From an uncultured Candidatus Saccharibacteria bacterium (lineage in GTDB: Bacteria; Patescibacteriota; WWE3; UBA101185; UBA10185): 25,197 nucleotides of DNA. Each line of letters opens with the position of its first letter. The first letter of the stretch is position 1. The notes under the pieces are model-generated. The model saw nothing but the letters and a program-made list of their open reading frames with translations. It searched no databases and was not told where the DNA came from. Below are positions 1-24,538 of this stretch, one piece after another. Location: NCBI GenBank assembly GCA_964617305.1, contig CAZTXE010000001.1:1-25197 (forward strand), written 5' to 3'. Made by a program: the position numbers and the translations under genes.

Positions 1-3000
1 TAGGAGTTTCATTTGCAGTGGTTGTTAGTGATTCTAATTTCATAACAGGACTCGTCGTCCCGATGCCGACGTTGCCGTCCCCATCAACAAACACATAATC
101 TTCCCCAGCTGAACCCTCCAAGTGAAACATATCCTCTGAAGCAGATTGCGTTATCTGTAGTAATGAGTCAGGTGTTGTTTCATTGATGCCGACGTTGCCG
201 TTTGTTGATTCAACCCTCATTCTTTCAGTCCAAGTCCTAGCACTTCCAATTGTTGTCGCTGGAGAAGTTTCTACAATAAATCCTGCTGCTCCAAATTTTT
301 GTTTTACAGCGGCATAATTACCGAAGGAATTATTGCTACTATCAGTATGACTGACAAGATATGGTCCTATGGTCGTGTTTCCTCCAAATGCCAATGATTG
401 GTCAGAGGCAAATTGGTTCGTAATCATTGAGTTTGTATTATTAAATACTGTCAATTTTTCAGCTGGCTCCGTCGTCCCGATGCCGACGTTTCCTGTGTCT
501 CTTTCTACCGTCAACCTAGTGTTAATTGTTGCTCCATTTCCAGATTTTAAATAAAAATTATTATCTCCTCCGTCAAGCATCATTCTAAAACCTCCAGAAT
601 TAGCATCACCAAAAGCTCCATTCGCCTCTGAGTTTGCTTCTGTTAAATCAAATATGGCATCATTTCCACTTAGTGTGTGTATCAATAAATTTGAATCTGC
701 CGCATTAGGACTATAAATATTTAACTTACTTAACGGACTCGTCGTCCCGATGCCGACGTTGCCCTGAATATACATTGGGCCTGCTGTTCCAGTATAATCA
801 TCAAGAAAATTATATCCTCTTGATTGAAATTCTAATGGTTGAGTATTGTAGGAGGTCATTGTTGTTTTTCCTCCAGCAGAAATACTCATATCAAAATTGT
901 TTGAATATGCATCAAGGAAATTACCTGACCCAGTTGTATAAAATTTATTTGCTTTTATACTGCCATCCACTTCTAACTTTTCCCCAGGACTCGTCGTCCC
1001 GATACCGACGTTGCCTCCTTCTAAAAGAGTTATACCTATGGCATTCCCTGCAATAAGCTGAAGTGCAGAACTTCCATATTTGCCTCCAATCACCATATCA
1101 AGATTTGAAGAACCAGTTACTAAACTATCTGTTGCTCTGGCTACTCCTATAAGACCCATTTCAGTGCTATCAGTATCTGAAAAAGAAATTGCACCTTCAA
1201 CACTTGCTTGTTCTTTTAATTCCAACATTCTGCTCGGACTCGTCGTCCCGATGCCGACGTTGCCGGCTGAGGTATCAACGTAGAGCTGATTCGTATTCAC
1301 TGCGAAGTCGCCAGTGGTGGAGAGATTTACGTTTACACCTGAGCCAGCGACTGGTTCCAGCGTCAATGCTCCTACCTGGGTCGTGATCTTAGGTGCGGCC
1401 GATGCATTTGCTCCAAAGGTCAGGGTAGGCACTGTTGCAGTGTCATCTGTGTCTATTTCAAAGGTATTGTTAGAGGTGCCGCTTGTAACGCTAGGTCCGA
1501 TTAAGCTATCAGCTGTCAATGAGCCAGCTACGGTGACATTGCCGGATTTATCCATGGTAAACTGAGAAGTTCCGTCGCCATCCTGGACAAGAAAGAGATT
1601 TAAATCCTTATACGCGGTCGCCCCTGCTGCGCCAGCAGTATGATTTGAATCCAGAGTCAAGCTAGTGGCAGAGCCGATCGCAGAGACTGTAAAAACCTCG
1701 CTTCCTATCTTTATGGCATCCCCTACTGCAAGCTCTGTGTCAAATGCAGTGGTTGCGCCTGTCACTGCAGCTTCATTGATGGTGACTGTGACTGTGCCTG
1801 TGAGGGCAGTAGTAAGGTTACCTTTTATGTGGACATTGGCTGCAGGGGCAGTGGTACCGATACCGACTCTACCAGTTCCCTGCATAATCCTCATTGCCTC
1901 AGAATTTCCTGGACTAAAGGCTATGTGTTCATTGCCTCCGTCGGACTTTATTTCATGATAAAGATGTCCGGCCTTATAAGGGACAATCTTAATAGCGCCT
2001 GCGCCAACACCTGAACTTACACGCAAACCATCACTTCCCACTATATCTAAATCTGTTGCAGGTGTGGTCGTGCCGATGCCGACGTTGCCATTCCCTTGAA
2101 TAGTCATTTTAACATTATCATCATCCACATCAACTTTTGTTGCAAAGTGAATATCTCCTGCGTCGTTATTATATCTATTTCCAATAAATACCTCTCCTGT
2201 TCCTGGATTTTCCCAAAGTGCCAATCCCTGCAAACCTGCATTTGCACCAACCCTCAAATAATCAGTTTCTCCATTTAACCAATTATACCTAATATCACTT
2301 ATTACATCTAACTTCGCCGCTGGACTAGTCGTCCCGATGCCGACTCGCGTGTTCTGCACCCCTCCCGTCCCATCGGCTTCTCCGTAGATCTTCATCACAG
2401 GAGTCGAGTCGAGTGAGAAGCTGTAGCTTTCCTCGGTCCCCGCTGCGGGTACGGAGGACACAGGCATGTTAATCATTGTCACCGCACCACTGTCCTCTGT
2501 CAATCCGATGGTCCCGATGTTCAGCGCGCCTCCAACTTCGATTTCGTTGTTGGTGTTTACTTTAAACATATTCACGACTCCCGTTCCCGCCGAGTCCACT
2601 CCAGCGAACCACGCATCGTTTGGTATTTGAATGTAGTCAGTGGTGTCTTCCACTAGTCGCATCATTTCTACCCCTCCCGAGATGAGGGAAAGCTGGTCAG
2701 TACCCGACGAGCCCATTCCAGTGTCATAGTCAGATAACACAGCAAAACCAGGATTTGTTGCAGTTGCGTATTCATCCAATATAACATTTCCACCAGTTCC
2801 TGATTCCACACGACCCGCTAAAATGTTAAATGTATTTGTGCCAGCTATTCCAAAACTTAAAACATCATCTGATGATTCGTATAAACCTGTATCTCCATCT
2901 CCGAAAGCTAACGATGGTGTCGCAACAGCTCCAATAACTCCCGCAGGACCAATAATTACTTGATCGGTTGTGGCGGTTCCTGTTTCCACGAGTCGAAGCA

Positions 3001-6000
3001 TTTCTTTCGCTCCGGCGATAAGGGAAAGCTGGTCGCCAGAGTTGGTCCCCATTCCTGTATCAGAGTCTGAACTATTTGGAACGACGCTCGGCGTGGTTGC
3101 TGATGGGGTAGACCGAATAAGTTTCGAACCAGTAACCGTTCCTATTCCGGTAGATGTTATGGTGAGGACATCCGTACCGGCTGCTGAAAAGTGAAGATTA
3201 TTATCGACACTTTCCCAAAATCCCGTATTACCATCTCCAAACGCTAAATTGGGTGCGGCAGCGGTTCCAGTGAGATCCGCTTGTGGATTAATGATGAATT
3301 GCTCGGTCGTTGCTTCAGAAGCTCGAGCGATTTCTTTCGCTCCGGCGATAATAGAAACTTGATCGGCGGCGTTTGCTCCGATTCCGGTATCTATATCATT
3401 ATTAGAAGGCATAAAGACAGGATTTGTTGCCGTTGGGTCTTCGTTTCTAATGACGGCTCTACCAGCTGAACCGGCTTCAAAGGAAGTTGATGTAAACAAG
3501 AACGGAGCCGTACCCGCAACTGCAATATTGAGTTGATCATCACTCGCTTCATAAAACCCGGTATCTCCATCTCCAAAAGCTAAAGTAGGAGCAGCAGAAT
3601 GGTCTCCAGGAGTTTCATTTAAACTTAACAAACCGAGTGGACTCGTCGTCCCGATTCCGACGTTTCCAGAACTGTCGATTCTCAATCTTTCGGTACCGTT
3701 TGTATAGAGAGCTGTTATTCCGTGTGTCCAGTTCGTATCATTCTTACTTGTTTGACCAATTTTGAAGAGTCCCGCAGCGGCTCCAGTTGTTCCTGGTGTA
3801 TAGCTCATATGAATAGCATTGTCGTGGGAGTAGTTTTTCGACAAAATCCATTGTTGTGTAGCGGCACCATCTCCATAAAGCCAGAGGGCATTATTGATAG
3901 CTTTTATTGTGTAGGGGTCTGTCGCGGCGGTACTTGCCAATTGGATGTCTCCGCCATCAACGTGCAATTTCGTTGCCGGACTCGACGTCCCGATCCCGAC
4001 GTTACCTGCAAAATAATTCGTGCCAGCCACAGAATAAATACCATAATTTGTAGTTCCTCCTGTTGCTGAGAAATAACCTGCTGTAACTGTATTATTTGTC
4101 TCACCTACCGCTACGTTATGTGATGCATAAACATTTCCGCCTGTTTGAGTTCCACCTGATGAATCTGCTCTTGCTTTTACTCCTATTAGTGTTCCATTAA
4201 AATCAGTAACAGCAGCACTCAGTTCTGCAAGAAAATAACCTGCGTTTTCTTCATTACCGCCATTACCACCTAATATAGATGATATTTTAGTATACCCAAA
4301 GACTCCTATATTTAATCTTCCTCCTGTGTTTACTCCTGATGCTCCAACTACTCCTATAGAACCATAAGGACTCAAAGAAGGAATTGCTATAGAAGATCCT
4401 TTTGCTATTCCAATAATTCCTGGAGGTGAATTTACTGTTGTAAAGAAATTATTACTTTTTGCAACTCCATTAACTGTAAAAGCCCCACCCTCTGAACCTA
4501 ATATTGTTCCTTTTGTATGTAGTTTTTGAGCAGGACTCGCCGTCCCTATTCCCACATTCCCCGTACTATCCTCCACAAATATCCCTGCTCCGCCGTCTTC
4601 ATACAGCTTCAACCCGTCGGCTCCTGTAGCCGTCACTTGCTTGGTGGTGATGTTGTCGGCGGCAATTTCGATGTTTCCGAGATTTGAAGTTCCGCTTACA
4701 GTTAGATCACCCGCAATAGTTGTGTTCCCTGAATTATCAATCACAAATTGATTGGTTCCATCTCCATCCTCTACAGCCAGTAAGTTAGGGTCAGTGTAAG
4801 CAGTGGCTCCAGTTGCTCCTGCTGAGTGAGCTGAATCAAGTGTTAAGCTCGTAGCACTTGCAATGGCTGAGATAGTGAATATTTCACTTCCTATTTTAAT
4901 TGAATCACCTACGGCTAGTTCTGTGTCAAATGCTGTAGTAGTTCCTGTTACGGTTGTAGATGCTGCTGTAACATCTACTGTACCTGTTAATGCTGTGGTT
5001 AAACTACCTTTTAGATGTAATTGTGCTGTTGGGGAGGTGGTGCCGATGCCGACGTTGCCACTTGTTGAAGCAAGTATTACATTCCCAACAGTTGTTTCTA
5101 TTGATCTGAAATCAGCAGCAGAAGTAAGGGTCGGATTAATATAAAGCCCCCTAGTGATTCCATTTGCTCCACCAGTCTGATTAACGGTTCCAGTATATGT
5201 ATAACCATTAAATACTCCAGTTCCTGAACTTGGTTGGAAATTTCTAGTATTTGTAAAAACATTCAATGTTCCACTGGTGAGTATCCCAGTTCCTGTAGCA
5301 CTAAAAGTAGAATTCGATGATACTACTGAAAAACTATTCGCAGCTGTAGCAGTTCCACCACTACTAACTTTAAAATAACTACTACCATTTAATTGCAAGT
5401 CCATCATATTCCCGCCAAATCCACTTGGAGCATTAACACCTAATCCTGTTCCAGCAGTAGACCAACCAGTAGAAGTTGCCCCAGATGGCTCAATAAGTAA
5501 ATATGGTTTGGTTGTTGTAGCATCTCCACCTGTTCTTATCCAAGTACCATCACCCTTTATCCCTGGTTGTGATAATGCTCCATTTATAGCCACATGTAAT
5601 CCTGCCACCGGACTCGTCGTCCCCACCCCGACATTCCCTTCAACTAACAAACCATTCGTAGGGGCTGTATTTGTTCCAGAGTAAGTGGCACCGATTACCG
5701 CACCCCCTTCAACATCGAGAGTGTTCGTCGGACTCACCGTCCCAATCCCCACATTCCCACTCTTATCAACAATAAACTTTCCAACAGAGTCTCCGTTATC
5801 AAGTTCAAATAAGTTAGGGTCAGTGTAAGCAGTGGCTCCAGTTGCTCCTGCTGAGTGAGCTGAATCAAGTGTTAAGCTCGTAGCACTTGCAATGGCTGAG
5901 ATAGTGAATATTTCACTTCCTATTTTAATTGAATCACCTACTGCTAGTTCTGTGTCAAATGCTGTAGTAGTTCCTGTTACTGTAGTAGATGCTGCTGTGA

Positions 6001-9000
6001 CAGCTACTGTTCCAGTGAGAGCCGTGGTTAAACCACCTTTTGTGTGGAGTTGTGCTGTTGGGGAGGTGGTGTTGATGCCGACGTTGCCAGAACCTTGAAT
6101 AGTTAATCTTGTATTTGTTGATTTTGTTCTAAAATAAATATCAGCATTATCATCAGAAGCCGTATTATCTATATATAAATCACTATTAGGATTATATTGT
6201 ATAATTCCACGTCCCCCAGAATAACCTCCTATTACAATAGAACCTGCAACCGCGTGTGCTCCATAACTTGGAGCATAGCCACTAAATGTAGCTTGATTTA
6301 CACTTGAACTATAAACATGTAATGGACTCCCTGGTCCCGTCGTCCCGATGCCGACGTTGCCAGTATTTACGATTAAATCTCCATCACTCTGTAATTCTAA
6401 AACCTGAGCATTAGATGAATCTATTATACTAATATAATCACTTGTTTGAGAAGCAATTCCTTTAATCTTTAAACCATCACGACTAGTAGAACCAATAATT
6501 GCCCCAATTTGCCCTGCTCCTAAATTACCTCCTGCCCTTAAAACATCATCAACAATTAAATAACTTGATACGTGAGCTGTGCCTGTAACATCTAATTTAT
6601 AACTCGGACTCGTCGTCCCGATGCCTACGTTGCCATCAGGAAAAGTATAAGCTCCTGAACCTAATCCAAATACTGCATTCGTCACATCATGAGTTATACT
6701 TACCCATTCATCATTTGCTGTATCTGGTGCCGTTGCAGATTGTATATAGAGGGTTGGATTTGTTTGTGCTGTATGGTCATAATCTTGATTATTTGTATTT
6801 CCAAATACTATTTGATTACCAAGTTGCGTGGAGTTATTTATTAAAAACTGCTGATATAAATGGTCTGCTATAAATTGCATTCTACTACTACCCCCTTCTA
6901 CAAAATTTATTTTTGCTGTTTGTTGCGTATCAGTCGCTCCACCCACCTCCATTCCAGCATCAAAATCAGCCCGACTATCAAATTGAGCTATTCCTGTTGC
7001 CCTAAAAGTTCCACTTACATCTAGCTTCGCCCCTGGACTCGTCGTCCCGATTCCGACGTTTCCATCTGTTGTTACAGCTATTCCAGAATGAGAACCATAT
7101 AATCCAGCTACTTGAGCATAAGTAGCTCCAGCTTGTCCAAACACCCATTTACCTGCATTTCCTTCAAATTGAGCAAAAGCAGAATTAGCGTTCACATACG
7201 TATGTAAAATTGCCCCTGGACTCGTCGTTCCTATTCCGACGTTGCCACCATCTTTTAAGAAAAATCTATTATCAGAAACTCCATCTTCAGTAAATCTTAA
7301 CCCCCCAGAAGCATATTGAACATGCCAATCGTCAGTAGCTCCATCTCCACTTGTCCAATACATCGCACCCTCATATATTGATGACCCCGCAACATGTAAT
7401 TTCCCACCAGGACTCGTCGTCCCGATTCCGACATTCCCAGTTATAGATACATTTGTAAATCCTCCACTGTTAACAGTTAGCAATGTCCCCGCTCCATCTG
7501 CCGAAGTCAAAACTGCGGTTCCTCCTATCCTGTAATCTCCCACATTTGAAGCTGTTTGTGAATTAATAGTGCCATTTACTTCTAGCTTCGCCCCCGGACT
7601 CGTCGTCCCGATACCGACGTTGCCTGAACTTCCTTCAACAAATAATCCAGTTCCTGATGCCCACTCTATTTTTGTATCTACATCAAATTGATTTTCATTT
7701 AAAACAATACCATAACCTGAACCTGTATTTATTTCAATATTTCTATCAGCAGTTAATTGTAATTTGTTATCTGAATCAATTGAAAAATCCCCTACTGAAT
7801 TTATAGATATTTGAGTTGGACTACCTCCGTCATAACCTACTATTAATTGAGGAGAAGCTGTGCTATTTATCTCTAATTTAGCTCCAGGACTCCCCGTCCC
7901 AATCCCCACACGCCCTCGTTTATCCATGACCATCTTACTCACCGCATCTCCATTATCGATGGCAAAGAGATTGCTGTCTTTGTACGCCGTCACCCCAGCC
8001 GCTCCCGCGACATGGTTAGAATCAATCGTAAGAGCGAGATCATTTGGAGCCGTTGCCACAGTGAAGACCTCACTTCCAATCTTAATTGCGTCCCCAATCG
8101 CAAGCTCTGTAGTAAACGCCGTTCCCACTCCTGTAACACTCGCTTCCCCTGCTGTTACCGATACGGTTCCTGTAAGCGCTGTTGTCAGTCCTCCTTTTGT
8201 GTGGAGTTGTGCGGTGGGGGAAGAAATGCCGATACCGACGTTTCCACCACTCTTTATTATCATCTTCACATCAGAGTAAGAAGCATCTGATGAGTCAACA
8301 GTGTTATTATTGGCAAAATATAAATCCCCAACAGCAGATGCCCCTGTTTCTTTCCATGCTATCAAACCTTTTGAAGTAACAGAACCAGACGCAGAAGAGA
8401 AGAGTACTCCTGCTTCATCTCCTGTATTACTTCTCGTATCGTGAACTTTTAAATAAGTATTACCTGATGAACCTTGAACGTGTAATTTCTTTTCTGGCGT
8501 TGCCGTCCCAATCCCCACCTTATCCGCACTCACATCAACAAACAATTTATCAGTATTCACCGTCAAATCACTCGCCACTGTTAAATCGTCAGCCAAGGTG
8601 AGTCCACCCGTTGCCGTGAAGTCTGTTCCCGCATTTCCAATATTAGTAATGATATTGGCATTCATATCCCAGTTTCCGTCATAGGATGTATCTCCACTCA
8701 CCGCCAAGTCCCCCTGCACAGTCAGATTATCTGACACCGCATCTCCGAGCCAGACACTGCCGTCCACTTCCAAGTTTCCTTTGATGTAAACATCATCAAC
8801 AGTTGTGGCATTCGCGTTCCCCGTGTCATCTCCCACCGTCAGTCCAGCTGTCGGAGACGTGTCTCCGATACCGACTTTCCCAGCACTATCAATAAAGAGC
8901 CTGTCACCCGCATTAACTCTCAATGCAAGACTGTCATTTGCATGTGAGTAAGTTATAGATCCAGCATTGCTATCACTCGCATCTGCAAATTCAATTGTAC

Positions 9001-12000
9001 TATTTGCAGACGCTCCCCCCAATATGGTTATCAATGCGTTTGTAGTGGTATTATTATTTGCCTGAAAGACGGCAACTGTATTATTCAAATAGGATGGTTC
9101 ACTTCCTGCACCATCGACTACATGCAATTTTTTACTCGGACTCGCCGTCCCAATCCCCAAGTTTCCACCACTGTTTATATAGGAATCTCCCGAACCAATA
9201 AGTTGTATTACCTGTGCGTTTACATTCGCTCCATCATTATAAATTCTAAATATTCCATTTCCATTACTATCGCTCCCCAACATTCCAGAGAATTTATTAT
9301 CAGCCTGTCTTAAATAAACATCCGCACTGTCTCCAACAACATCTAATTTTGCCGTTGGACTCGCTGTCCCAACCCCTGTATATCCTTTTTTGTCTACCAC
9401 TACCTTGCTCACTCCGTCTCCATTGTCCACCGCGAAGAGGTTTGGATCTTTGTACGCTGTTGCTCCCGCCGCCCCCGCCGTGTGCGTGCTGTCGAGGGTA
9501 AGGAGAAGATCATTTGGTGCCGTTGCCACCGTGAACACTTCACTTCCAATCTTAATCGCATCCCCAATCGCAAGCTCTGTGGTAAAGAGTGTTCCCACCC
9601 CCTCTACCGAGTTTGAACTCGCACTCACGGTTACGGTTCCCGTGAGGGCGGTGGAGAGGTTTCCTTTTGTGTGAAGACCTGCAGTAGGAGCTATTGTGTT
9701 AATACCAATACCACTTGTTTCAATGTTCAATCTATCTATAGCTCCCGTTTGAATTCTCATATAATTCGTATTTCCAATGATTCTGGTCCCCGTAGTTCCC
9801 CATTTGAGAGAGGAATTTTCTGCCAACCTAATCTCTCCCGCTACTTCTAACTTCGCCCCTGGACTCGTCGTCCCGATACCGACGTTGCCAGAGGAATCAA
9901 TCCGCATTCTCTCTGCTTGACCTGCCCAAAGAACCATATCATCTGTCTCCGCACCCAAAAGAACTTCAGTAGTCCCAGCAGTATTAGAATCCTTAAAAGC
10001 CAAATAAGCATTTGCATCTCCACTTTCGATAAGCCCCAAGGTATTAGTTGTTGCATGGTATACATGCAAAGGATTTGAAGGACTCGTCGTCCCGATACCA
10101 ACGTTTCCAGTAGGAAAATATGCTTTAGAGTTTACGCTATCCAATCTTAACCACTCAGTTCCTCCTACAATTAAAGAAAGTAAATCTGAACCCGCACGAC
10201 CAATACCAGTATCTCCATCACTCTGGAATGTAAAGGCGGGTGCTGTTGCACCTGGTGCTGTTGATACTATTCTTCCACCAGTTGAAACACTCGCCCCCAT
10301 AGCACCTGAAAATATTTTAAATTGCTCAACTCCTGCAATATCAATTCTTATATCATCATCTAAACCCTCGTAAATTCCCGTATCCCCATCTCCAAAACTT
10401 AAACCTCCCGCCAGAGAACCAATAGTTCCATTCATATTCAAAATAGATTGAGGAGTTGTCGTTCCGATACCGATGTTCCCACCAGAAGTAATCACCATTT
10501 TCTGTGTAGCAGCTTCTGAAGCTCCTGTTTTAAATATCAATTCCGTCGCATTGCTACTCGCAGAGAACGTTCCTTCGGCCACCGCTTCAATGGCGGCTCC
10601 TACTAAGATCGCATCCGTGCCATCAGATTCCAATGGTGCATCAAATTCAATCTTTCCCAAGACATCACCATCCACAACCGTGAGTTCTTCCGTCGAGAGA
10701 TCAACTGCTCCCGGAGCTCCCGGAGGACCTGAGACATTCAGAAGTGCAGTAGGACTCGTCGTTCCTATTCCGACGTTTCCTGAGGAATCAATTCTCATCA
10801 TCTCAGAAAAATTCCCAGAGTAGAAAGATAAATGAGCACCATCGTTCGCAGTCCCAACTATCATTTCGTCACTATTATGATTCCATCTCAATGTTGCACC
10901 AACACTATCAGAGGGACTTCCAAATTGAATTCCAGATGTACTTGCATCAGGAGAAAGGATACTAAGTCCAGCATTCCCACTATTTTCAACAATTAAATCA
11001 TCACCATCTGCATGTGCAGTGATAGTTCCCGCCGTTGCCGTGTGAGCATGGAGTGTGCCATCAGGACTCGTTGTCCCGATTCCGACGTTACCGGTTGTGT
11101 GTGCGATTACCAAACGGGTAGTATCGCCAGAGGTGCCTTCTCGAATTCCAAAAAATGAATTGGGGACATAGTTTGTTCCATCCCCAACTCCTGCCATCCA
11201 AGAAAAAGATCCTGCACGATTGTAGGTAATCATAGGAATAGCACTTTTTACTTCCAAAGTAGAATTTGGCGTGGCCGTCCCAATACCCACCTTCCCCGCA
11301 CTCACATCCACAAACAGATCTGTAGAATCCACCGCTAAATCATCCGCGAGAGTGAGCCCTCCGGTCGCTGAGAAATCCGTCCCAGCGGCCCCAATGTTTA
11401 TAATTTTACTATTCGCCATATCAAGATCCCCAGAGGTAAATTCCATTGCCCCTTGTACATCCAGTGTTCCTGTAACCGTTACATTGTCGAGCACCATGTC
11501 GTCTCCCAAGAGCACATCGCCATCGACTTCCAAGTTTCCCGCGACATATAAATCACCGTCACCGGTTGCAAGCGTCGAAGTTCCGGTTCCAATATTTACC
11601 AATCCGTCCACAGTAACCTTCTTACTCGAGAGCCCTCCTGAACCATCCGCCAGTCCTATGATTTTTAGGATTGGATTACTGTCGATTGAGATCGCTGTGC
11701 TGTGCTCCGTCCCTGCTGTCGATGATGCTGAAACGGGTTGATTGTAGAGCGTCGTCTGCCCCGCATCTTCTTTTGCCACGAGTGTTGAAATCTCGATGTC
11801 TGGATGATACCCCGCCCAGAGGTCTTGGATTTCATTTACAGAAAGAATCCGATTGTAAACGCGGAGGTCTGAAATGGAACCGTCGAAAGAAAGCGCTCCC
11901 GTACTATCATTTCCAATGATAACATTCGTTGTTCCTGTCGCTGGAGTTCCTGAAGCTTGATCAGCAGAACCATTGAGAGTTGGGGCGGTGTCGGTATCTC

Positions 12001-14818: not shown

Positions 14819-14945
14819 ACGGGTACGAATTTGGGGTTCCTTACTAATGCGAATTTTGCCTGAAAAAGCGGATATCTCCAAAGAAAAGACCCTAAAAGTA
14901 TGGATTTTACGTTGCAAAAAAATACATTTGTTTTGAAACACCATT

Positions 14946-22351: not shown

Positions 22352-22882
22352 TTAAAACCCTCCGCCTCCATTGAGACCTGATCGTTCTCTATGGATCTGG
22401 TCAAGTTCTCCTGGCAGTGCTCTGTTTCCCGCAGGGGCTTCTGTTTGCTGATTTCCATCTCGATCATCGGTTCCCGCAGGGGCATGCACAATAAGTGTAT
22501 TTACCAGTGCGTACGACACCAATACAACCAATATTCCTATCGCGGCAAAGATCACTATCTTTTTCGCTTTTTCGTGCTGACCATCGTCTCCTCCAGCCGT
22601 AACATAAAGAAATCCTGCATAAATCAGAAATGCCACTGCAAGAAGTCCGAGGAAAGAAAGTGCAAAATTAAGCACTCCCACTAAATATACACGTGCTGAT
22701 GTATTGGCTCCAATTCCATCTATTCCAAAATCTGCTGCATCGGGTAATTCAAATTCTCCACTTGGAACTGCTCCTCCAAAATTAAAAATGTCATTGATTT
22801 CGTCCCCTATCCCTCCATACGCCTCTGGGACTAAGAGAGTAAGTGCAAAGAATGCCATGAAAACGAGAAGTATTTTTTTCAT
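22352..22882 (-). CDS. VirB2/TrbC-like (T4SS_pilin-type) pilin, 176 aa
   Basis: Core VLNFALSFLGLLAVAFLIYAGFLYVTAGGDDGQHEKAKKIVIFAAIGILVVLVSYALVN is the two-helix pilin pattern; signal-like N-terminus; ATGA overlap with the upstream pilin. Confidence 0.85.
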   Translation of the reverse strand: MKKILLVFMAFFALTLLVPEAYGGIGDEINDIFNFGGAVPSGEFELPDAADFGIDGIGANTSARVYLVGVLNFALSFLGLLAVAFLIYAGFLYVTAGGDDGQHEKAKKIVIFAAIGILVVLVSYALVNTLIVHAPAGTDDRDGNQQTEAPAGNRALPGELDQIHRERSGLNGGGGF

Positions 22883-23406
22883 AAGAAAGAATGTAAAGAT
22901 GAGATAAGAATAGCCTGTTCAGGACCAAATCGAGCCTGCATGATTGTGTTTACAATGGCATAGGAACCAAAGATAAGAAGAATTCCTATGGCCACCCACA
23001 TAACCACTTTTTTTGCTTTTTCGGTTTGCCCATCATCTCCACCAGCCGTGACATATAAGAATCCTGCAAACACAATCGCTAAGACCGCAATGACAGCGGT
23101 AACCGAAAGGAAAAACTTCATCCATCCGACAAGCAGTCGGTTCATATTTTTTACTTTTGAAACGCCATTATCGAGCCGGCATTTCGCAAGTTTTGCTCCT
23201 TTTTTTATTCCTGGTCCATCAAAAATTGGTTTTTCTTGATCTCCAAAACTTATATCAATATCGATAACATCCCCCAAAAGACATTCTGCATCATCTAATA
23301 CGTCTTCTACATTATCTACGAAACTCGCAAATACCCCTTGAGAATGATAAGAAACACCTCCCCAAAACAGAAGTGCAACGAGAAAGGCAAAACATATTTT
23401 TTTCAT
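22879..23406 (-). CDS. VirB2/TrbC-like (T4SS_pilin-type) pilin, 175 aa (start moved from 23496 to MKKICFAFL at 23406)
   Basis: Core FFLSVTAVIAVLAIVFAGFLYVTAGGDDGQTEKAKKVVMWVAIGILLIFGSYAIVN. The internal Met gives a signal peptide matching its paralogue (MKKI..) and removes the overlap with purL. Confidence 0.85.
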   Translation of the reverse strand: MKKICFAFLVALLFWGGVSYHSQGVFASFVDNVEDVLDDAECLLGDVIDIDISFGDQEKPIFDGPGIKKGAKLAKCRLDNGVSKVKNMNRLLVGWMKFFLSVTAVIAVLAIVFAGFLYVTAGGDDGQTEKAKKVVMWVAIGILLIFGSYAIVNTIMQARFGPEQAILISSLHSFL

Positions 23407-23482
23407 AGTATTTGTGTTTTTCTTATTACAGCACAAAGACCGACCGTTTTCAAACGTTCTTCTTTTTTTGTGTGAAGATTTT

Positions 23483-24538
23483 TTAAAATATTTCACGAAG
23501 TTTATTTTCCCACGTTTCTTTCCAAGAAATCAAGCTTTCTTCTTCGAGCAGTTCTCCCTTCACAGAAAGTTTGAGAACAAAATCGTCTGTTGTTGTTCCT
23601 ACCTCCATCGCTTCATCGCCAAAAATCTCTTGAATCTTCTCCGGATACATTGTGGAGATAATGGCACCAACGCTCTCCGAGAAGAGAATTTGAGGAAGTT
23701 GTTCCAATTGTAAATCGGCAATCGGCAATCGAAAATCTAGAGTCGCTCCTTTTCCACTTGCGAGACAAGCCTCTGCAACAGCGGTAATCATTCCTCCTTG
23801 CACAATTGGTCGCGCACAAGAAAGAAGTCCTTTTTCTGATACATTACGGAGTTTTTCCGTCCATTGTTTTACATCGCTGAAATCAATTTTTTCAACCCGA
23901 GAATCTTCTTTTTCACACGTTGATAAAAAGACTGATCCTCCTAACTTATCCGAACGTGCCCCGATTACAAAAATGGTTTCTCCTCCTTTTTGAAAGTTTT
24001 GCGAAGGAACTGTCGCTGGATCATCGACTCGTGCAAAGACTGAAACTAGAGCGCTCGGTGGAATAGATTTCCCTCCTGATTCATTATAAAACGAGACATT
24101 TCCAGATACAATCGGCACATCAAGAGCACTGCAGACTTCTTTAAGTCCTTCGACTCCGTCGACAAATTCTCCCATCTGATCTGCTTTTTCTGGGTTTCCA
24201 AAGTTGAGACAATCGGTTACTGCCAAAGGCGTTCCCCCAACACAAGAAACTTTTATCACTGCTTCTGCTACCGCATACTCTGAAGCAATACGGGCAGAAA
24301 TTTTGGCCAAATTAGGATTTCCTCCCGTCGCAATAGCCACACCCGTTCGCGATCCTTTTTCTGATAACTCCGGAAAATCTCGAAAAGGGGTAAGTACTGA
24401 AGCTGCTACCATACCTCTCTCGCACGCGGTATTCCCCTGCACATTTTTATCGTACTTTTCATACACCGGCATACGCGAAGATCCGTTTACCGATTCCAAT
24501 ATTTTTTCGAGAACTTCAAAATTTTTCATCGGCGTCAT
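23483..24538 (-). CDS. purL: C-terminal half of phosphoribosylformylglycinamidine synthase PurL (351 aa); the N-terminal half is not adjacent
   Basis: Motifs VYEKYDKNVQGNT, AVTDCLNFGNPE, PIVSGNVSFYNE and LFSES match the second half of PurL. An in-frame TGA lies at 24569-24571 and a TAA at 24626-24628 upstream. Confidence 0.8.
   Translation of the reverse strand: MTPMKNFEVLEKILESVNGSSRMPVYEKYDKNVQGNTACERGMVAASVLTPFRDFPELSEKGSRTGVAIATGGNPNLAKISARIASEYAVAEAVIKVSCVGGTPLAVTDCLNFGNPEKADQMGEFVDGVEGLKEVCSALDVPIVSGNVSFYNESGGKSIPPSALVSVFARVDDPATVPSQNFQKGGETIFVIGARSDKLGGSVFLSTCEKEDSRVEKIDFSDVKQWTEKLRNVSEKGLLSCARPIVQGGMITAVAEACLASGKGATLDFRLPIADLQLEQLPQILFSESVGAIISTMYPEKIQEIFGDEAMEVGTTTDDFVLKLSVKGELLEEESLISWKETWENKLREIF
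23703..23737 (-). repeat. Five degenerate tandem heptamers inside purL
   Basis: Minus strand GATTTTC GATTGCC GATTGCC GATTTAC AATTGGA, encoding DFRLPIADLQLE. Confidence 0.6.

What the first reader, a model, noticed from the sequence alone, without database searches (positions are those of the whole stretch)
48..11092. A 29-bp GC-rich junction conserved as DNA: a candidate cassette-shuffling system building a modular fibre gene
Seen in sequence: ten copies of GGCAACGTCGGCATCGGGACGACGAGTCC are within two mismatches (three exact), including synonymous positions that are G/C. The repeat is 20/29 GC, while neighbouring cassettes are 13/60 (6121-6180), 19/60 (661-720) and 18/60 (781-840) GC by hand count. 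The intervening modules, mostly about 120-700 bp, are largely unrelated to each other. In the N-terminal part (11268-14599) the same peptide is encoded with drifted third positions (e.g. 13566 has seven mismatches, all at third positions). The repeat contains a CGTCG/CGACG inverted pair around a 9-nt spacer. Inference: protein-level selection alone does not explain this, so the junction may be a recombination crossover site, homologous or site-specific. Adhesin or receptor-binding modules would then be inserted, deleted and swapped in frame, making a coding analogue of an integron or CRISPR-like array.
Basis: partly seen in the sequence, partly recalled or inferred. Interest (0 to 1): 0.88.

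Follow-up and report, generated by a model that had tools for sequence, protein, structure and literature searches.

The report
DNA-conserved in-frame junction in fibre genes
A giant cell-surface fibre gene is built from dozens of modules, each starting with the same 29-base DNA string, and that string, kept letter-for-letter in many unrelated microbes and viruses, marks where related genes have swapped modules, so it looks like a built-in in-frame recombination handle.

Summary
One minus-strand ORF (14944..2, at least 4981 aa, C-terminus off the window) carries 37 copies of the peptide motif GNVGIGTTSP. Fifteen lie within 3 mismatches of GGCAACGTCGGCATCGGGACGACGAGTCC, written in codons that are rare in the rest of the gene (z = 9.9).

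The protein is a tail-fibre-like trimeric fibre of the MAT/S74 kind, and the motif is its known "capping loop".

The exact DNA string is not local. It occurs in at least 120 IMG/VR contigs and at least 119 species genomes (CPR bacteria, DPANN archaea, others), with locus GC of 29-60% where measured. It is always in frame and always in direct orientation. Its edges are sharp: linked third positions inside it are fixed, neighbouring ones are free.

In related loci, recent homology blocks (at least 90% identity) start and end exactly at the 29-mer. They do so more often at DNA-exact copies than at drifted ones (p = 0.004). In the window, module GC3 ranges from 0.07 to 0.47.

Best reading: an in-frame anchor of minimal homology length for homologous recombination that shuffles fibre modules. 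No integrase, inverted sites or significant hairpin was found, so the integron/CRISPR analogy is not supported.

A PD-(D/E)XK/zinc-ribbon nuclease gene sits downstream of such fibre genes in many CPR loci. That lead is untested.

The parts
2..14944 (-). Giant fibre ORF. It is open from 14944 to the window edge (4981 codons), so the C-terminus and stop codon lie outside the window. The likely start is ATG 14818 (MTYKNPFVLTIKGLILGMGLLYVSTGFA, a signal- or anchor-like N-terminus).
   Evidence: single open frame. (only Laminin_G_3 and weak Pfam hits). (PDB hits to Bdellovibrio MAT fibre Bd2133/8OND, E = 1.6e-6, and to 8OJN, aligned on the motif). (many homologues carry PF13884 Peptidase_S74).
11825..12292 (-). 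Laminin_G_3 (concanavalin-like lectin) domain, aa 885-1040, in the N-terminal part of the gene where junctions are drifted.
   Evidence: E = 5.3e-14.
48..76 (-). Junction 29-mer, exact canonical copy (GNVGIGTTSP).
465..493 (-). Junction, 4 mismatches (GNVGIGTTEP).
735..763 (-). Junction, exact canonical copy.
987..1015 (-). Junction, 1 mismatch.
1236..1264 (-). Junction, exact canonical copy.
2061..2089 (-). Junction, 4 mismatches (GNVGIGTTTP).
3639..3667 (-). Junction, 2 mismatches.
3978..4006 (-). Junction, 3 mismatches (GNVGIGTSSP).
6333..6361 (-). Junction, 2 mismatches (GNVGIGTTGP).
6606..6634 (-). Junction, 1 mismatch.
7035..7063 (-). Junction, 2 mismatches.
7218..7246 (-). Junction, 3 mismatches.
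7410..7438 (-). Junction, 3 mismatches.
7596..7624 (-). Junction, 1 mismatch.
9861..9889 (-). Junction, 1 mismatch.
10080..10108 (-). Junction, 3 mismatches.
10752..10780 (-). Junction, 4 mismatches (exact peptide).
11064..11092 (-). Junction, 3 mismatches.
11268..14599 (-). N-terminal stretch holding six drifted copies of the same peptide motif: 14571-14599, 14406-14434, 13869-13897, 13566-13594, 13263-13291 and 11268-11296, with 7-13 mismatches.
   Evidence: Across all copies in the gene, synonymous departures from the canonical string go 67:33 to A/T, matching the gene's GC3 of 0.34.
171..10480 (-). Thirteen further drifted junction copies (5-10 mismatches) interspersed with the canonical ones: 10452-10480, 9138-9166, 8853-8881, 8496-8524, 8217-8245, 7887-7915, 6060-6088, 5730-5758, 5610-5638, 5031-5059, 4533-4561, 1845-1873 and 171-199.
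4781..5060 (-). Paralogous module, 93% identical to 5810-6089. It starts 1 nt before its junction. The family carries its own junction variant (...ATC GGC ACC ACC TCC).
   Evidence: (family D2).
5810..6089 (-). Paralogous module, partner of 4781-5060. Further family members at 7887-8246, 1539-1886 and 9342-9676 are 65-70% identical. They start at a junction and, where another junction follows, end at it.

Best explanation
The window holds most of a giant, secreted or anchored, tail-fibre-like trimeric fibre gene of the MAT/S74 kind, in a CPR-like cellular context. Each beta-helix module begins with the 'capping-loop' peptide GNVGIGTTSP.

In this gene, and in a large set of fibre genes in CPR bacteria, DPANN archaea and some viruses, that peptide is written in one canonical 29-nt DNA string, GGC AAC GTC GGC ATC GGG ACG ACG AGT CC. 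The string is always in the same codon phase and always in direct orientation.

The string works as a short identical anchor for homologous recombination. This could be RecA- or annealase-dependent crossover, or template switching between direct repeats. At 29 nt it is about the minimal efficient length for such recombination. Modules can therefore be replaced, duplicated, deleted or imported without breaking the frame or the fold.

Modules that move carry canonical anchors with them, so recently moved modules have exact anchors. Anchors that stop recombining decay at synonymous sites toward the genome's A/T-rich codon usage.

Shown here:
- DNA-level conservation beyond codon usage.
- Sharp 29-nt edges.
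- Wide distribution.
- Breakpoints at the anchor in related loci, and their dependence on DNA exactness.
- Compositional mosaicism of this gene.

Inferred:
- That recombination is what keeps the string identical.
- Which recombination pathway acts.
- That this particular gene is still exchanging modules.
For: Within the window:
- Codon identity among copies has z = 9.9, and the consensus has probability 7.5e-8 under the gene's codon usage.
- Module GC3 ranges from 0.07 to 0.47 (chi2 = 307, df 37, p about 1e-44), while three neighbouring genes are homogeneous.
- Canonical junctions precede the most A/T-rich modules (Spearman 0.46, p = 0.004).
- Paralogous modules run from junction to junction.
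- Drifted copies depart 67:33 toward A/T.

Beyond the window:
All 143 copies with enough flank are in open frame.
- It is in at least 119 species genomes, mostly CPR and DPANN MAGs, including complete or long-read assemblies with 3-13 near-exact copies each.
- A control string predicted to be 19 times more likely from site frequencies has only 41 copies in the whole collection.
- Third positions not used in the search are linked to the string: the preceding GGC carries 1.35-1.47 bits and the internal GGC 1.2-1.4 bits. The Pro third position and the third positions of the conserved downstream K/L/V carry 0.1-0.3 bits.
- In a sample chosen through a neighbouring gene rather than through the string, 32/48 GNVGIGTTSP copies are exact 29-mers. 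In an unbiased viral sample only 1/150 is.

Recombination:
- Of 479 unique internal ends of blocks of at least 150 nt and at least 90% identity, 51/238 5' ends fall at -5..+4 of the string. Of the 3' ends, 80/241 fall at +15..+34. No 5' end, and only a handful of 3' ends, fall elsewhere within 60-90 nt.
- In L029, successive junction-to-junction modules each match a different contig from a different metagenome at 95-98%.
- 43/82 near-exact junctions have a block ending at them, against 6/29 drifted junctions (Fisher p = 0.004).

[quoted passage not shown] MAT fibre tips are 'swapped out in evolution' (PMC10769870).
Against: - No near-identical relative of this gene or its modules exists in the databases. 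Exchange is therefore demonstrated only in related loci, mostly one network of viral contigs. The CPR-only sample gave too few informative blocks.
- Breakpoints at module starts would also be favoured by selection for intact domains. The exact-versus-drifted contrast argues against this but rests on about 110 junctions.
- It is unexplained how one string stays identical across bacteria, archaea and viruses that can hardly form a single recombining pool.
- It is also unexplained why Ser stays AGT while the other third positions are G/C.
- Phage-like S74 contigs use other, locus-homogeneous strings, so the canonical one is not required for the fold or for repeats in general.
- Cause and effect are not separated. 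The string might be conserved for another reason and merely be used by recombination.
Confidence: 0.6

Rival explanations
1. Nuclease-assisted, sequence-specific system. A PD-(D/E)XK nuclease with an IS1-type zinc-ribbon DNA-binding domain is encoded with a 23S-rRNA-IVP/Avd-like four-helix-bundle protein just downstream of such fibre genes in CPR. In this reading it recognises or cuts the canonical 29-mer and so triggers in-frame cassette exchange. The string would then be conserved as its recognition site, a coding analogue of a recombination signal sequence.
For: - The nuclease gene lies within 2.5 kb downstream, on the same strand, in 13/49 CPR genome loci where the fibre gene's 3' end is visible.
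- Reciprocal test: loci were retrieved by the nuclease alone. Of the 45 with at least 1.2 kb of upstream sequence, 29 have at least one near-exact 29-mer on the same strand within 4 kb upstream. This holds for 11/13 of those with the full 4 kb, and none has a copy on the other strand.
- The order fibre -> small ORF -> nuclease -> four-helix-bundle gene recurs, and the four-helix-bundle gene is present in 72/80 loci.
- In these loci 67% of GNVGIGTTSP copies are exact 29-mers.
- Pfam assigns PDDEXK_1. NCBIfam gives a below-cutoff match to the IS1/IS1595 zinc-binding domain.
Against: - The nuclease is found in only 1 of 120 viral loci that carry the exact string, so it cannot be the general cause.
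- The same downstream region also holds MazF/PemK-like, NYN and IS200-like genes. That looks like a hotspot for selfish or defence genes, so linkage may be positional.
- Sequence specificity is untested.
- The fibre gene's 3' flank is outside the window, and no nuclease homologue lies inside it.
Confidence: 0.15
2. Concerted evolution only. Gene conversion or unequal crossing-over among the repeats of one gene homogenises the motif DNA, without exchange of modules between genes or genomes. The widespread canonical string would then be ancestral.
For: - Within-locus homogeneity is strong. In loci that hold one exact copy, about 70% of the other copies have 0-2 mismatches.
- Phage-like contigs have their own locus-specific strings.
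- Some window copies share about 50 nt including the following GAKLEV.
Against: - It does not explain identical strings in loci with GC 29-60% from different domains of life whose flanks have diverged beyond alignment.
- It does not explain 95-100% identical modules shared between contigs of different metagenomes in different module orders.
- It does not explain the GC3 mosaic of this gene.
Confidence: 0.1
3. Selection on the mRNA or on translation. A run of rare codons or a small hairpin at each module start slows the ribosome so that the previous module folds. Recombination at the string would be a by-product.
For: - The codons used are rare in this gene.
- The position at every module start fits a pause site.
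- There is a weak Watson-Crick association between the third positions of Val and the first Thr in the unbiased sample.
Against: - The 29-mer and five copies with flanks fold no better than shuffles (z from -1.0 to +0.2).
- There is no Rfam match.
- Most motif copies in nature use other codons.
- Hosts with GC 29-60% and different tRNA pools would not share one optimal string.
- The Pro third position and the downstream conserved residues are free.
Confidence: 0.04
4. Assembly artefact. Metagenome assemblers joined fragments of different genomes at the shared 29-mer, creating a chimeric giant ORF and spurious mosaics.
For: - Breakpoints at a short shared repeat, an intact frame across the joins, and module-to-module GC3 jumps are what chimeric joins at an in-frame repeat would look like.
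- All the data are MAGs or metagenome contigs.
Against: - The longest exact run shared by any two junction regions in the window is 31 nt. From general knowledge, that is below the final k-mer sizes of current assemblers.
- Compositionally deviant modules are also bounded by drifted junctions that share no long exact run. An example is aa 3103-3295 (GC3 0.17), with junctions of 5 and 6 mismatches.
- The same junction-spanning arrangements recur at 98-100% identity in independent metagenomes, for example L032/L070 over 573 nt and L029/L027. There were also 53 read-through cases at near-exact junctions.
- Shared modules are usually 95-98% identical, not 100%.
- Complete-chromosome and long-read assemblies carry several near-exact copies.
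Confidence: 0.04

Closest known systems
MAT (mosaic adhesive trimer) / S74-type tail-fibre-like fibres (Bdellovibrio Bd2133, Bd3182; phage T5 L-shaped fibre; K1F endosialidase). Caulton et al. 2024, PMC10769870.
   Same: - Sequence hits to Bd2133 (8OND) and 8OJN align on the repeated motif.
- The motif matches their 'capping loop' consensus V-G-G/N-pi-x-x-P-x-x-x-L, which sits on the edges of the intertwined trimeric beta-helix.
- Homologues of the window protein end in Peptidase_S74.
- That paper shows at the protein level that tips have been exchanged in evolution.
   Different: - The window protein is much larger (at least 4981 aa, 37 motif copies, against roughly 600-1150 aa).
- It sits in a CPR-like context.
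- That paper treats the motif as protein structure only. I found no mention there of conservation of its DNA or of its role as a crossover point.
- The window protein's C-terminus (S74 domain or other tip) is not in the window.
Recombination between conserved motifs in T-even phage distal tail-fibre and adhesin genes (His boxes in gp37; glycine-rich motifs flanking hypervariable segments in gp38). Tetart et al. 1998; Trojet et al. 2011, PMC3157838.
   Same: - Short conserved motifs flank variable receptor-binding segments.
[quoted passage not shown]
- The outcome is in-frame swapping of specificity modules drawn from a shared pool.
   Different: - There is no sequence relationship.
- Here a single 29-nt string has fixed synonymous sites, recurs up to tens of times per gene, and is shared by cellular genomes of two domains and by viruses.
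- It sits in giant cellular surface proteins rather than in one phage lineage.
Site-specific switching of fibre or pilus tips: Gin/Cin/Min DNA invertases with 26-bp crossover sites inside tail-fibre genes, and the R64 shufflon (Rci, 19-bp repeats). From general knowledge.
   Same: Short DNA sites of conserved sequence lie inside the coding region of a fibre or adhesin gene, at the border between constant and variable parts.
   Different: - Those sites are inverted pairs next to a recombinase gene, and they flip alternative C-termini.
- Here all copies are direct, the gene is one continuous ORF, and no recombinase is adjacent.
Integron cassette arrays (IntI, attI, attC). From general knowledge.
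   Same: An array of unrelated modules is separated by a recurring junction element. Insertion and excision at the junction would preserve function.
   Different: - No integrase is present.
- attC sites are conserved as folded hairpins rather than as sequence. Here the sequence is conserved and the fold is not significant.
- Integron cassettes are separate ORFs. Here modules are in-frame parts of one protein.
Cassette gene-conversion systems for surface variation (Borrelia vlsE/vls with 17-bp direct repeats; Neisseria pilE/pilS). From general knowledge.
   Same: Conserved DNA stretches bracket variable cassettes and serve as homology for conversion.
   Different: - Those systems use silent donor cassettes beside one expression site within one genome.
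- No silent array is seen here.
- The anchor here is shared across very distant genomes.

Membership tests
MAT / S74-type trimeric fibre superfamily (protein) | Repeated capping-loop motif V-G-G/N-pi-x-x-P-x-x-x-L on beta-helix modules | tested here: met
   There are 37 copies of G-N-V-G-I-G-T-T-S-P-x-x-K-L-x-V-like motifs. phmmer hits to Bd2133 (8OND, E = 1.6e-6) and to 8OJN (E = 0.005) align on the motif. The consensus is taken from PMC10769870.
MAT / S74-type trimeric fibre superfamily (protein) | C-terminal S74 intramolecular chaperone/protease domain (S74 subgroup) or an alternative adhesive tip (NS74 subgroup) | not testable with these tools
   The C-terminus lies outside the window. Many homologues carry PF13884.
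MAT / S74-type trimeric fibre superfamily (protein) | Intertwined trimeric beta-helix / beta-prism fold | tested here: inconclusive
   A single-sequence AlphaFold2 model of aa 2430-2790 had pLDDT 35.7. It is beta-rich but unusable, so no fold search was run.
Conserved-motif-mediated homologous shuffling of fibre/adhesin modules (T-even gp37/gp38 type) | Conserved short motifs flank variable segments | tested here: met
Conserved-motif-mediated homologous shuffling of fibre/adhesin modules (T-even gp37/gp38 type) | Recombination breakpoints lie in or at the conserved motifs | tested here: met
   Met in related loci. For the window gene itself the support is indirect only: module paralogues bounded by junctions and the GC3 mosaic.
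Conserved-motif-mediated homologous shuffling of fibre/adhesin modules (T-even gp37/gp38 type) | Homology to gp37/gp38 | tested here: not met
   No Pfam or NCBIfam hit of that kind. The resemblance is in mechanism, not in descent.
Integron | Adjacent tyrosine-recombinase (IntI) gene | tested here: not met
   The six upstream genes are SLH/VWA, PKD x2, T4SS_pilin x2 and AIRS-like. No recombinase is among the recurrent neighbours of about 350 loci. The 3' flank of the gene is not in the window.
Integron | attC-type imperfect hairpin at each cassette border | tested here: not met
   Folding z-scores run from -1.0 to +0.2.
Shufflon / DNA-invertase switch | Crossover sites in inverted orientation bracketing invertible segments | tested here: not met
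   All 15 window copies are on one strand. None of 119 genome loci has copies on both strands.
CRISPR array | Non-coding repeat-spacer array with short spacers and cas genes | tested here: not met
   The repeats are in-frame codons of one ORF, with spacing of 120-2500 nt. The annotated neighbouring genes include no cas genes.
Diversity-generating retroelement | Reverse transcriptase with a template/variable repeat pair | tested here: not met
   No reverse transcriptase is in the window. No long repeat pair with A-specific differences was seen. Only an Avd-like four-helix-bundle gene is found in related CPR loci.

The most novel reading that the evidence does not exclude
The canonical 29-mer is a coding recombination signal. 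In CPR bacteria a dedicated gene pair sits downstream of the fibre gene: a PD-(D/E)XK nuclease with a transposase-type zinc ribbon, and an Avd/IVP-like four-helix-bundle protein. In this reading the pair recognises the string and starts breaks there. The cell, or the population, would then actively reshuffle in-frame adhesin modules of its giant host-contact fibres. That would be a programmed protein-diversification system distinct from DGRs, invertases, integrons and cassette conversion.
Probability: 0.15. Interest if true: 0.95.

Novelty: new variant of a known kind. Interest (0 to 1): 0.78.

Why it matters
CPR bacteria and DPANN archaea live attached to other cells, and giant surface fibres are prime candidates for host recognition.

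If fibre modules are exchanged at a fixed in-frame DNA handle shared with viruses, host range in these lineages could evolve by drawing on a common library of binding modules rather than by point mutation. The same would apply to their phages and to the NCLDV-like viruses that carry the same string.

The 29-mer is also a practical tool:
- It is a sequence tag for finding and delimiting such modules in metagenomes.
- It is a natural splice point for engineering chimeric fibres.

It also gives a clean natural case for asking whether recombination itself can hold synonymous sites fixed across domains of life. The linked nuclease gene pair gives a concrete, testable candidate for an active mechanism.

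Tried and rejected
- **Codon bias or a GC-rich donor as the cause.** Rejected. The codons are rare in the gene. The string occurs in loci of 29-60% GC. AGT is not a GC-rich choice. A string predicted to be more probable is far rarer.
- **Tandem duplication of whole modules.** Rejected for most copies, because the flanks are unalignable. It applies to one 93% pair and a few older families.
- **Hairpin or cruciform from CGTCG/CGACG.** No excess stability. Third-position covariation is weak and no stronger than the associations seen between non-pairing site pairs.
- **Known RNA families and tRNAs.** None found.
- **Strain-level comparison of this gene.** The upstream SLH protein is not on record. 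The best homologue of the N-terminal third is 44% identical. The best homologues of the canonical-junction modules are at most 50% identical. Module gain or loss in this gene could therefore not be tested.
- **Structure prediction** of three to four modules without an alignment. Unusable (pLDDT 36). No fold search was run.
- **Universal neighbouring recombinase.** None. The commonest neighbours differ by group: NCLDV-type capsid, primase, NUDIX and tail-fibre chaperone genes in viral loci, and the nuclease with the four-helix-bundle gene in CPR loci.
- **Replication of the breakpoint analysis** in the CPR metagenome sample. Too few informative blocks.
- **Literature search** for the peptide string and for DNA-level conservation of fibre junctions. 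Nothing was found beyond the protein-level motif and the T-even precedent. The library searched is incomplete.

Full report
**Observation.**
The 29-mer GGCAACGTCGGCATCGGGACGACGAGTCC has 15 matches within 3 mismatches, all on the minus strand (3 exact, 4 with one mismatch, 3 with two, 5 with three). None is expected from shuffles. The GC counts of the repeat and of the three 60-nt windows are correct, as are the seven third-position mismatches at 13566-13594.

All copies lie in one frame of a single open reading frame from 14944 to the window edge (4981 codons, stop not reached). They encode GNVGIGTTSP. The gene has 16 exact copies of that peptide and 37 loose ones.

**What the gene is.**
The upstream genes on the same strand are an SLH/VWA protein, two PKD-repeat proteins, two T4SS-pilin-like small proteins and an AIR-synthase-related protein. 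This is a cellular, CPR-like surface-gene neighbourhood; the taxon itself was not tested.

The giant protein has a hydrophobic N-terminus after ATG 14818 and a Laminin_G_3 domain. Otherwise it has no significant Pfam or NCBIfam coverage.

A 500-aa stretch of modules hits the crystal structures of Bdellovibrio Bd2133 (8OND, E = 1.6e-6) and 8OJN. Both alignments sit on the repeated motif. Those proteins are the "mosaic adhesive trimer" (MAT) fibres of Caulton et al. 2024. That paper describes the consensus V-G-G/N-pi-x-x-P-x-x-x-L as the capping loop on the edges of an intertwined trimeric beta-helix. The loop is shared with S74-type phage fibres (PMC10769870). Many homologues of the window protein end in Peptidase_S74.

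So the peptide motif is a known structural element that opens each beta-helix module. That explains the peptide but not its DNA.

**DNA-level conservation in the window.**
In the 16 exact-peptide copies, seven codons are nearly fixed in forms that are rare in the rest of the gene:

| Codon | Use in the 16 copies | Share in rest of gene |
|---|---|---|
| AAC | 14/16 | 27% |
| GTC | 13/16 | 12% |
| ATC | 14/16 | 20% |
| GGG | 12/16 | 17% |
| ACG (first Thr) | 13/16 | 20% |
| ACG (second Thr) | 14/16 | 20% |
| AGT | 15/16 | 29% |

Mean pairwise codon identity is 0.604, against 0.350 +/- 0.026 for codons drawn from the gene's own usage (z = 9.9). The consensus has probability 7.5e-8 under that usage. 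Flanks of the copies are unrelated except for a few module families. Across all copies, synonymous departures from the canonical string go 67:33 to A/T, matching the gene's GC3 of 0.34.

**The string is not local.**
The exact core AACGTCGGNATCGGGACGACGAGTCC occurs in at least 120 IMG/VR contigs. These contigs have GC of 29-60% and unrelated flanking peptides. Every copy with enough flank is in an open frame.

It also occurs in at least 119 species-representative genomes:
- Mostly CPR lineages: Saccharibacteria, Paceibacterota, Doudna-, Peri-, Morani-, Lipton- and Kaiserbacteria, WWE3.
- DPANN archaea: Woese- and Pacearchaeota.
- Scattered others.

These include a complete Paceibacterota chromosome, a Nanopore MAG and an archaeal 148-kb contig, with 3, 4 and 13 near-exact copies in their fetched 8-kb stretches.

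A peptide-level degenerate scan gives an unbiased viral sample. In it the motif is usually written in other, A/T-rich codons. Copies at 0-1 mismatches form a small separate mode: 7 observed against 0.08 expected from independent sites.

A control string predicted from site frequencies to be 19 times more likely has only 41 copies in the entire collection.

The edges are sharp. With one copy taken per locus, third positions that were not part of the search pattern are linked to the string. The preceding Gly is GGC (1.35-1.47 bits) and the internal Gly is GGC (1.2-1.4 bits). The Pro third position and the third positions of the conserved downstream Lys, Leu and Val carry 0.1-0.3 bits, and the flanks carry about zero.

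Loci chosen through a neighbouring gene, with no reference to the string, show the same pattern. There, 32 of 48 GNVGIGTTSP copies are exact 29-mers and 43 are within 3 mismatches, at locus GC of 31-58%.

Loci chosen by protein similarity form a gradient:
- The closest homologue (44% identity) mixes canonical and drifted copies, like the window.
- Odinarchaeia and Liptonbacteria contigs are near-canonical.
- Phage-like S74 contigs use another string that is homogeneous within each locus.

**Recombination at the junction.**
Among the fetched loci, a network of viral contigs from different metagenomes shares patches of 85-100% identity. I took the 479 unique internal ends of blocks of at least 150 nt and at least 90% identity:
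- 5' ends pile up at -5..+4 of the first base of the 29-mer (51 of 238).
- 3' ends pile up at +15..+34 (80 of 241).
- No 5' end, and only a handful of 3' ends, fall elsewhere within 60-90 nt.

In L029, five successive junction-to-junction modules each have their best match (95-98%) in a different contig. The block edges fall on the 29-mers. The shared modules stand in a different order in L071.

The effect depends on DNA, not only on the peptide. In the loci retrieved by the exact string, 43 of 82 junctions with at most 2 mismatches have a block ending at them. Only 6 of 29 junctions with at least 5 mismatches do (Fisher p = 0.004).

**Evidence from the window gene itself.**
No near-identical relative exists, so the evidence here is indirect:
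- Paralogous modules begin at a junction and end at the next one.
- Module GC3 ranges from 0.07 to 0.47 (chi2 = 307, df 37), while the neighbouring genes are homogeneous.
- Canonical junctions precede the most A/T-rich modules (Spearman 0.46, p = 0.004). This fits recently imported modules carrying fresh anchors.

**Alternatives tested.**
- Hairpin or RNA element: no excess folding, no Rfam family, only weak covariation.
- Site-specific inversion: excluded by orientation. All copies are direct in the window and in all 119 genome loci.
- Integron-like system: no integrase in the window or among recurrent neighbours.
- Assembly chimeras are unlikely, for five reasons:
  - The longest exact run shared by junction regions is 31 nt.
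  - Deviant modules are also bounded by drifted junctions.
  - Junction-spanning arrangements recur in independent metagenomes.
  - Shared modules are mostly 95-98% identical rather than 100%.
  - Long-read and complete assemblies carry multiple copies.

  Reads were not available, so this remains a stated caveat.

**A candidate machine.**
In CPR loci the fibre gene is often followed, on the same strand, by a 370-500-aa protein. It has an IS1-type zinc ribbon (a below-cutoff NCBIfam match) and a RecB/Cas4-like PD-(D/E)XK domain. A 23S-rRNA-IVP/Avd-like four-helix-bundle protein comes next.

The arrangement is seen in 13 of 49 loci where the fibre gene's 3' end is visible.

In the reciprocal test, 80 metagenome loci were retrieved with the nuclease alone, and 45 of them have at least 1.2 kb of upstream sequence. 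Of those 45, 29 hold at least one near-exact 29-mer on the same strand within 4 kb upstream. That is true of 11 of the 13 loci with the full 4 kb. None has a copy on the other strand.

Two points argue against a causal role. The gene is found in only 1 of 120 viral loci that share the string. Its surroundings also hold MazF-like, NYN and IS200-like genes, so a hotspot of selfish genes is an equally simple reading. The window ends before the place where such genes would lie.

**Mechanism.**
I commit to the following, at 0.6 confidence. The 29-mer is an in-frame homology anchor at each module start of a MAT/S74-type fibre gene. From general knowledge of RecA- and annealase-dependent exchange, 29 nt is about the minimal efficient length for homologous recombination.

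Recombination between anchors, within a gene, between genes, or with incoming DNA, replaces, duplicates or deletes modules without breaking the frame or the fold. Moved modules carry canonical anchors. Idle anchors decay toward local codon usage.

Shown: the conservation, its edges, its distribution, and the breakpoints with their dependence on exactness in related loci. Inferred: that recombination, rather than another constraint, maintains the string; which pathway acts; and that this gene is still active in exchange.

Two things remain unexplained. One is how a single string stays fixed across bacteria, archaea and viruses. The other is why Ser remains AGT.

**Comparison and novelty.**
The protein belongs with the MAT/S74 fibres: the motif criterion is met, while the tip and fold criteria could not be tested. 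[quoted passage not shown] It resembles invertase, shufflon, integron and vls systems only in having a recurring DNA site at cassette borders. Their defining features were tested here and not met.

What appears to be new is one specific 29-nt coding string with frozen synonymous sites, repeated up to tens of times per gene, shared across domains of life and viruses, and demonstrably coincident with recent exchange points. The nuclease linkage in CPR also appears to be new. I found no description of either in the searchable literature, which is incomplete.

Verdict: a new variant of a known kind. Interest 0.78.

Noticed in passing
L396-L475 (for example L402 9962-11758, L438 9761-11699, L453 9938-11746); also L255, L273, L287, L297, L303, L308, L322, L323, L331: A conserved gene pair sits directly downstream of giant fibre genes in CPR contigs, on the same strand. 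The first gene is a 370-500-aa protein with an IS1-type zinc ribbon and a RecB/Cas4-like PD-(D/E)XK domain. The second is a 23S-rRNA-IVP/Avd-like four-helix-bundle protein. At least 553 relatives of the nuclease exist in the metagenome collection.
   Followed up: partly
L396-L475, between and after the fibre and nuclease genes (for example L460 8813-9202, L413 2332-2838, L438 3352-4041): PemK/MazF-like toxin (18 loci), NYN-domain (19 loci) and IS200-like Y1 transposase (11 loci) genes recur in the same neighbourhood. The region beside the fibre genes looks like a hotspot for selfish or defence genes.
   Followed up: no
Viral loci with the exact string, for example L062, L070, L077, L037, L029, L055: Contigs of 5-370 kb combine an NCLDV-type double-jelly-roll major capsid gene (18 loci), a C962R-like AEP primase and a NUDIX gene. 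In several, a phage tail-fibre assembly-chaperone domain gene lies next to the fibre gene. This is an odd mix of giant-virus and phage features.
   Followed up: no
L477, L478, L479, L484 (phage-like contigs with Peptidase_S74 genes): The same peptide motif is written in a different string, roughly GG[CT] AAC GTA GGT ATT GG[TA] ACT ACT AGT CCT. It is homogeneous within each locus. Within-gene homogenisation of the junction may therefore be general, with the canonical GC-rich string being only one widespread version.
   Followed up: no
window 4781-5060, 5810-6089, 7887-8246, 1539-1886, 9342-9676: A five-member family of modules of about 110 aa (TAQLHTKGGLTTALTGTV...IKIGSE.FTV) carries its own junction variant (ATC GGC ACC ACC TCC instead of ATC GGG ACG ACG AGT). 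The 3' half of the junction seems to travel with the downstream module.
   Followed up: partly
window 2657-3600, with relatives at 10332-10419 and 12953-13230: Three consecutive units of about 336 nt encode '...AFGDGDTGFYESSDD...LSLIAGG.E..R' modules that lack the capping-loop motif. They form a second repeat family inside the gene.
   Followed up: no
window 22352-23496: Two adjacent small genes with T4SS_pilin/TrbC-like domains lie upstream of the PKD, SLH and fibre genes. This suggests a surface-appendage gene cluster typical of CPR genomes.
   Followed up: no
Unbiased viral sample, L121-L237: AGT is the Ser codon in 61% of motif copies whatever the locus composition. The third positions of Val and the first Thr show a mild excess of Watson-Crick-complementary combinations (65 observed against about 45 expected).
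   Followed up: partly
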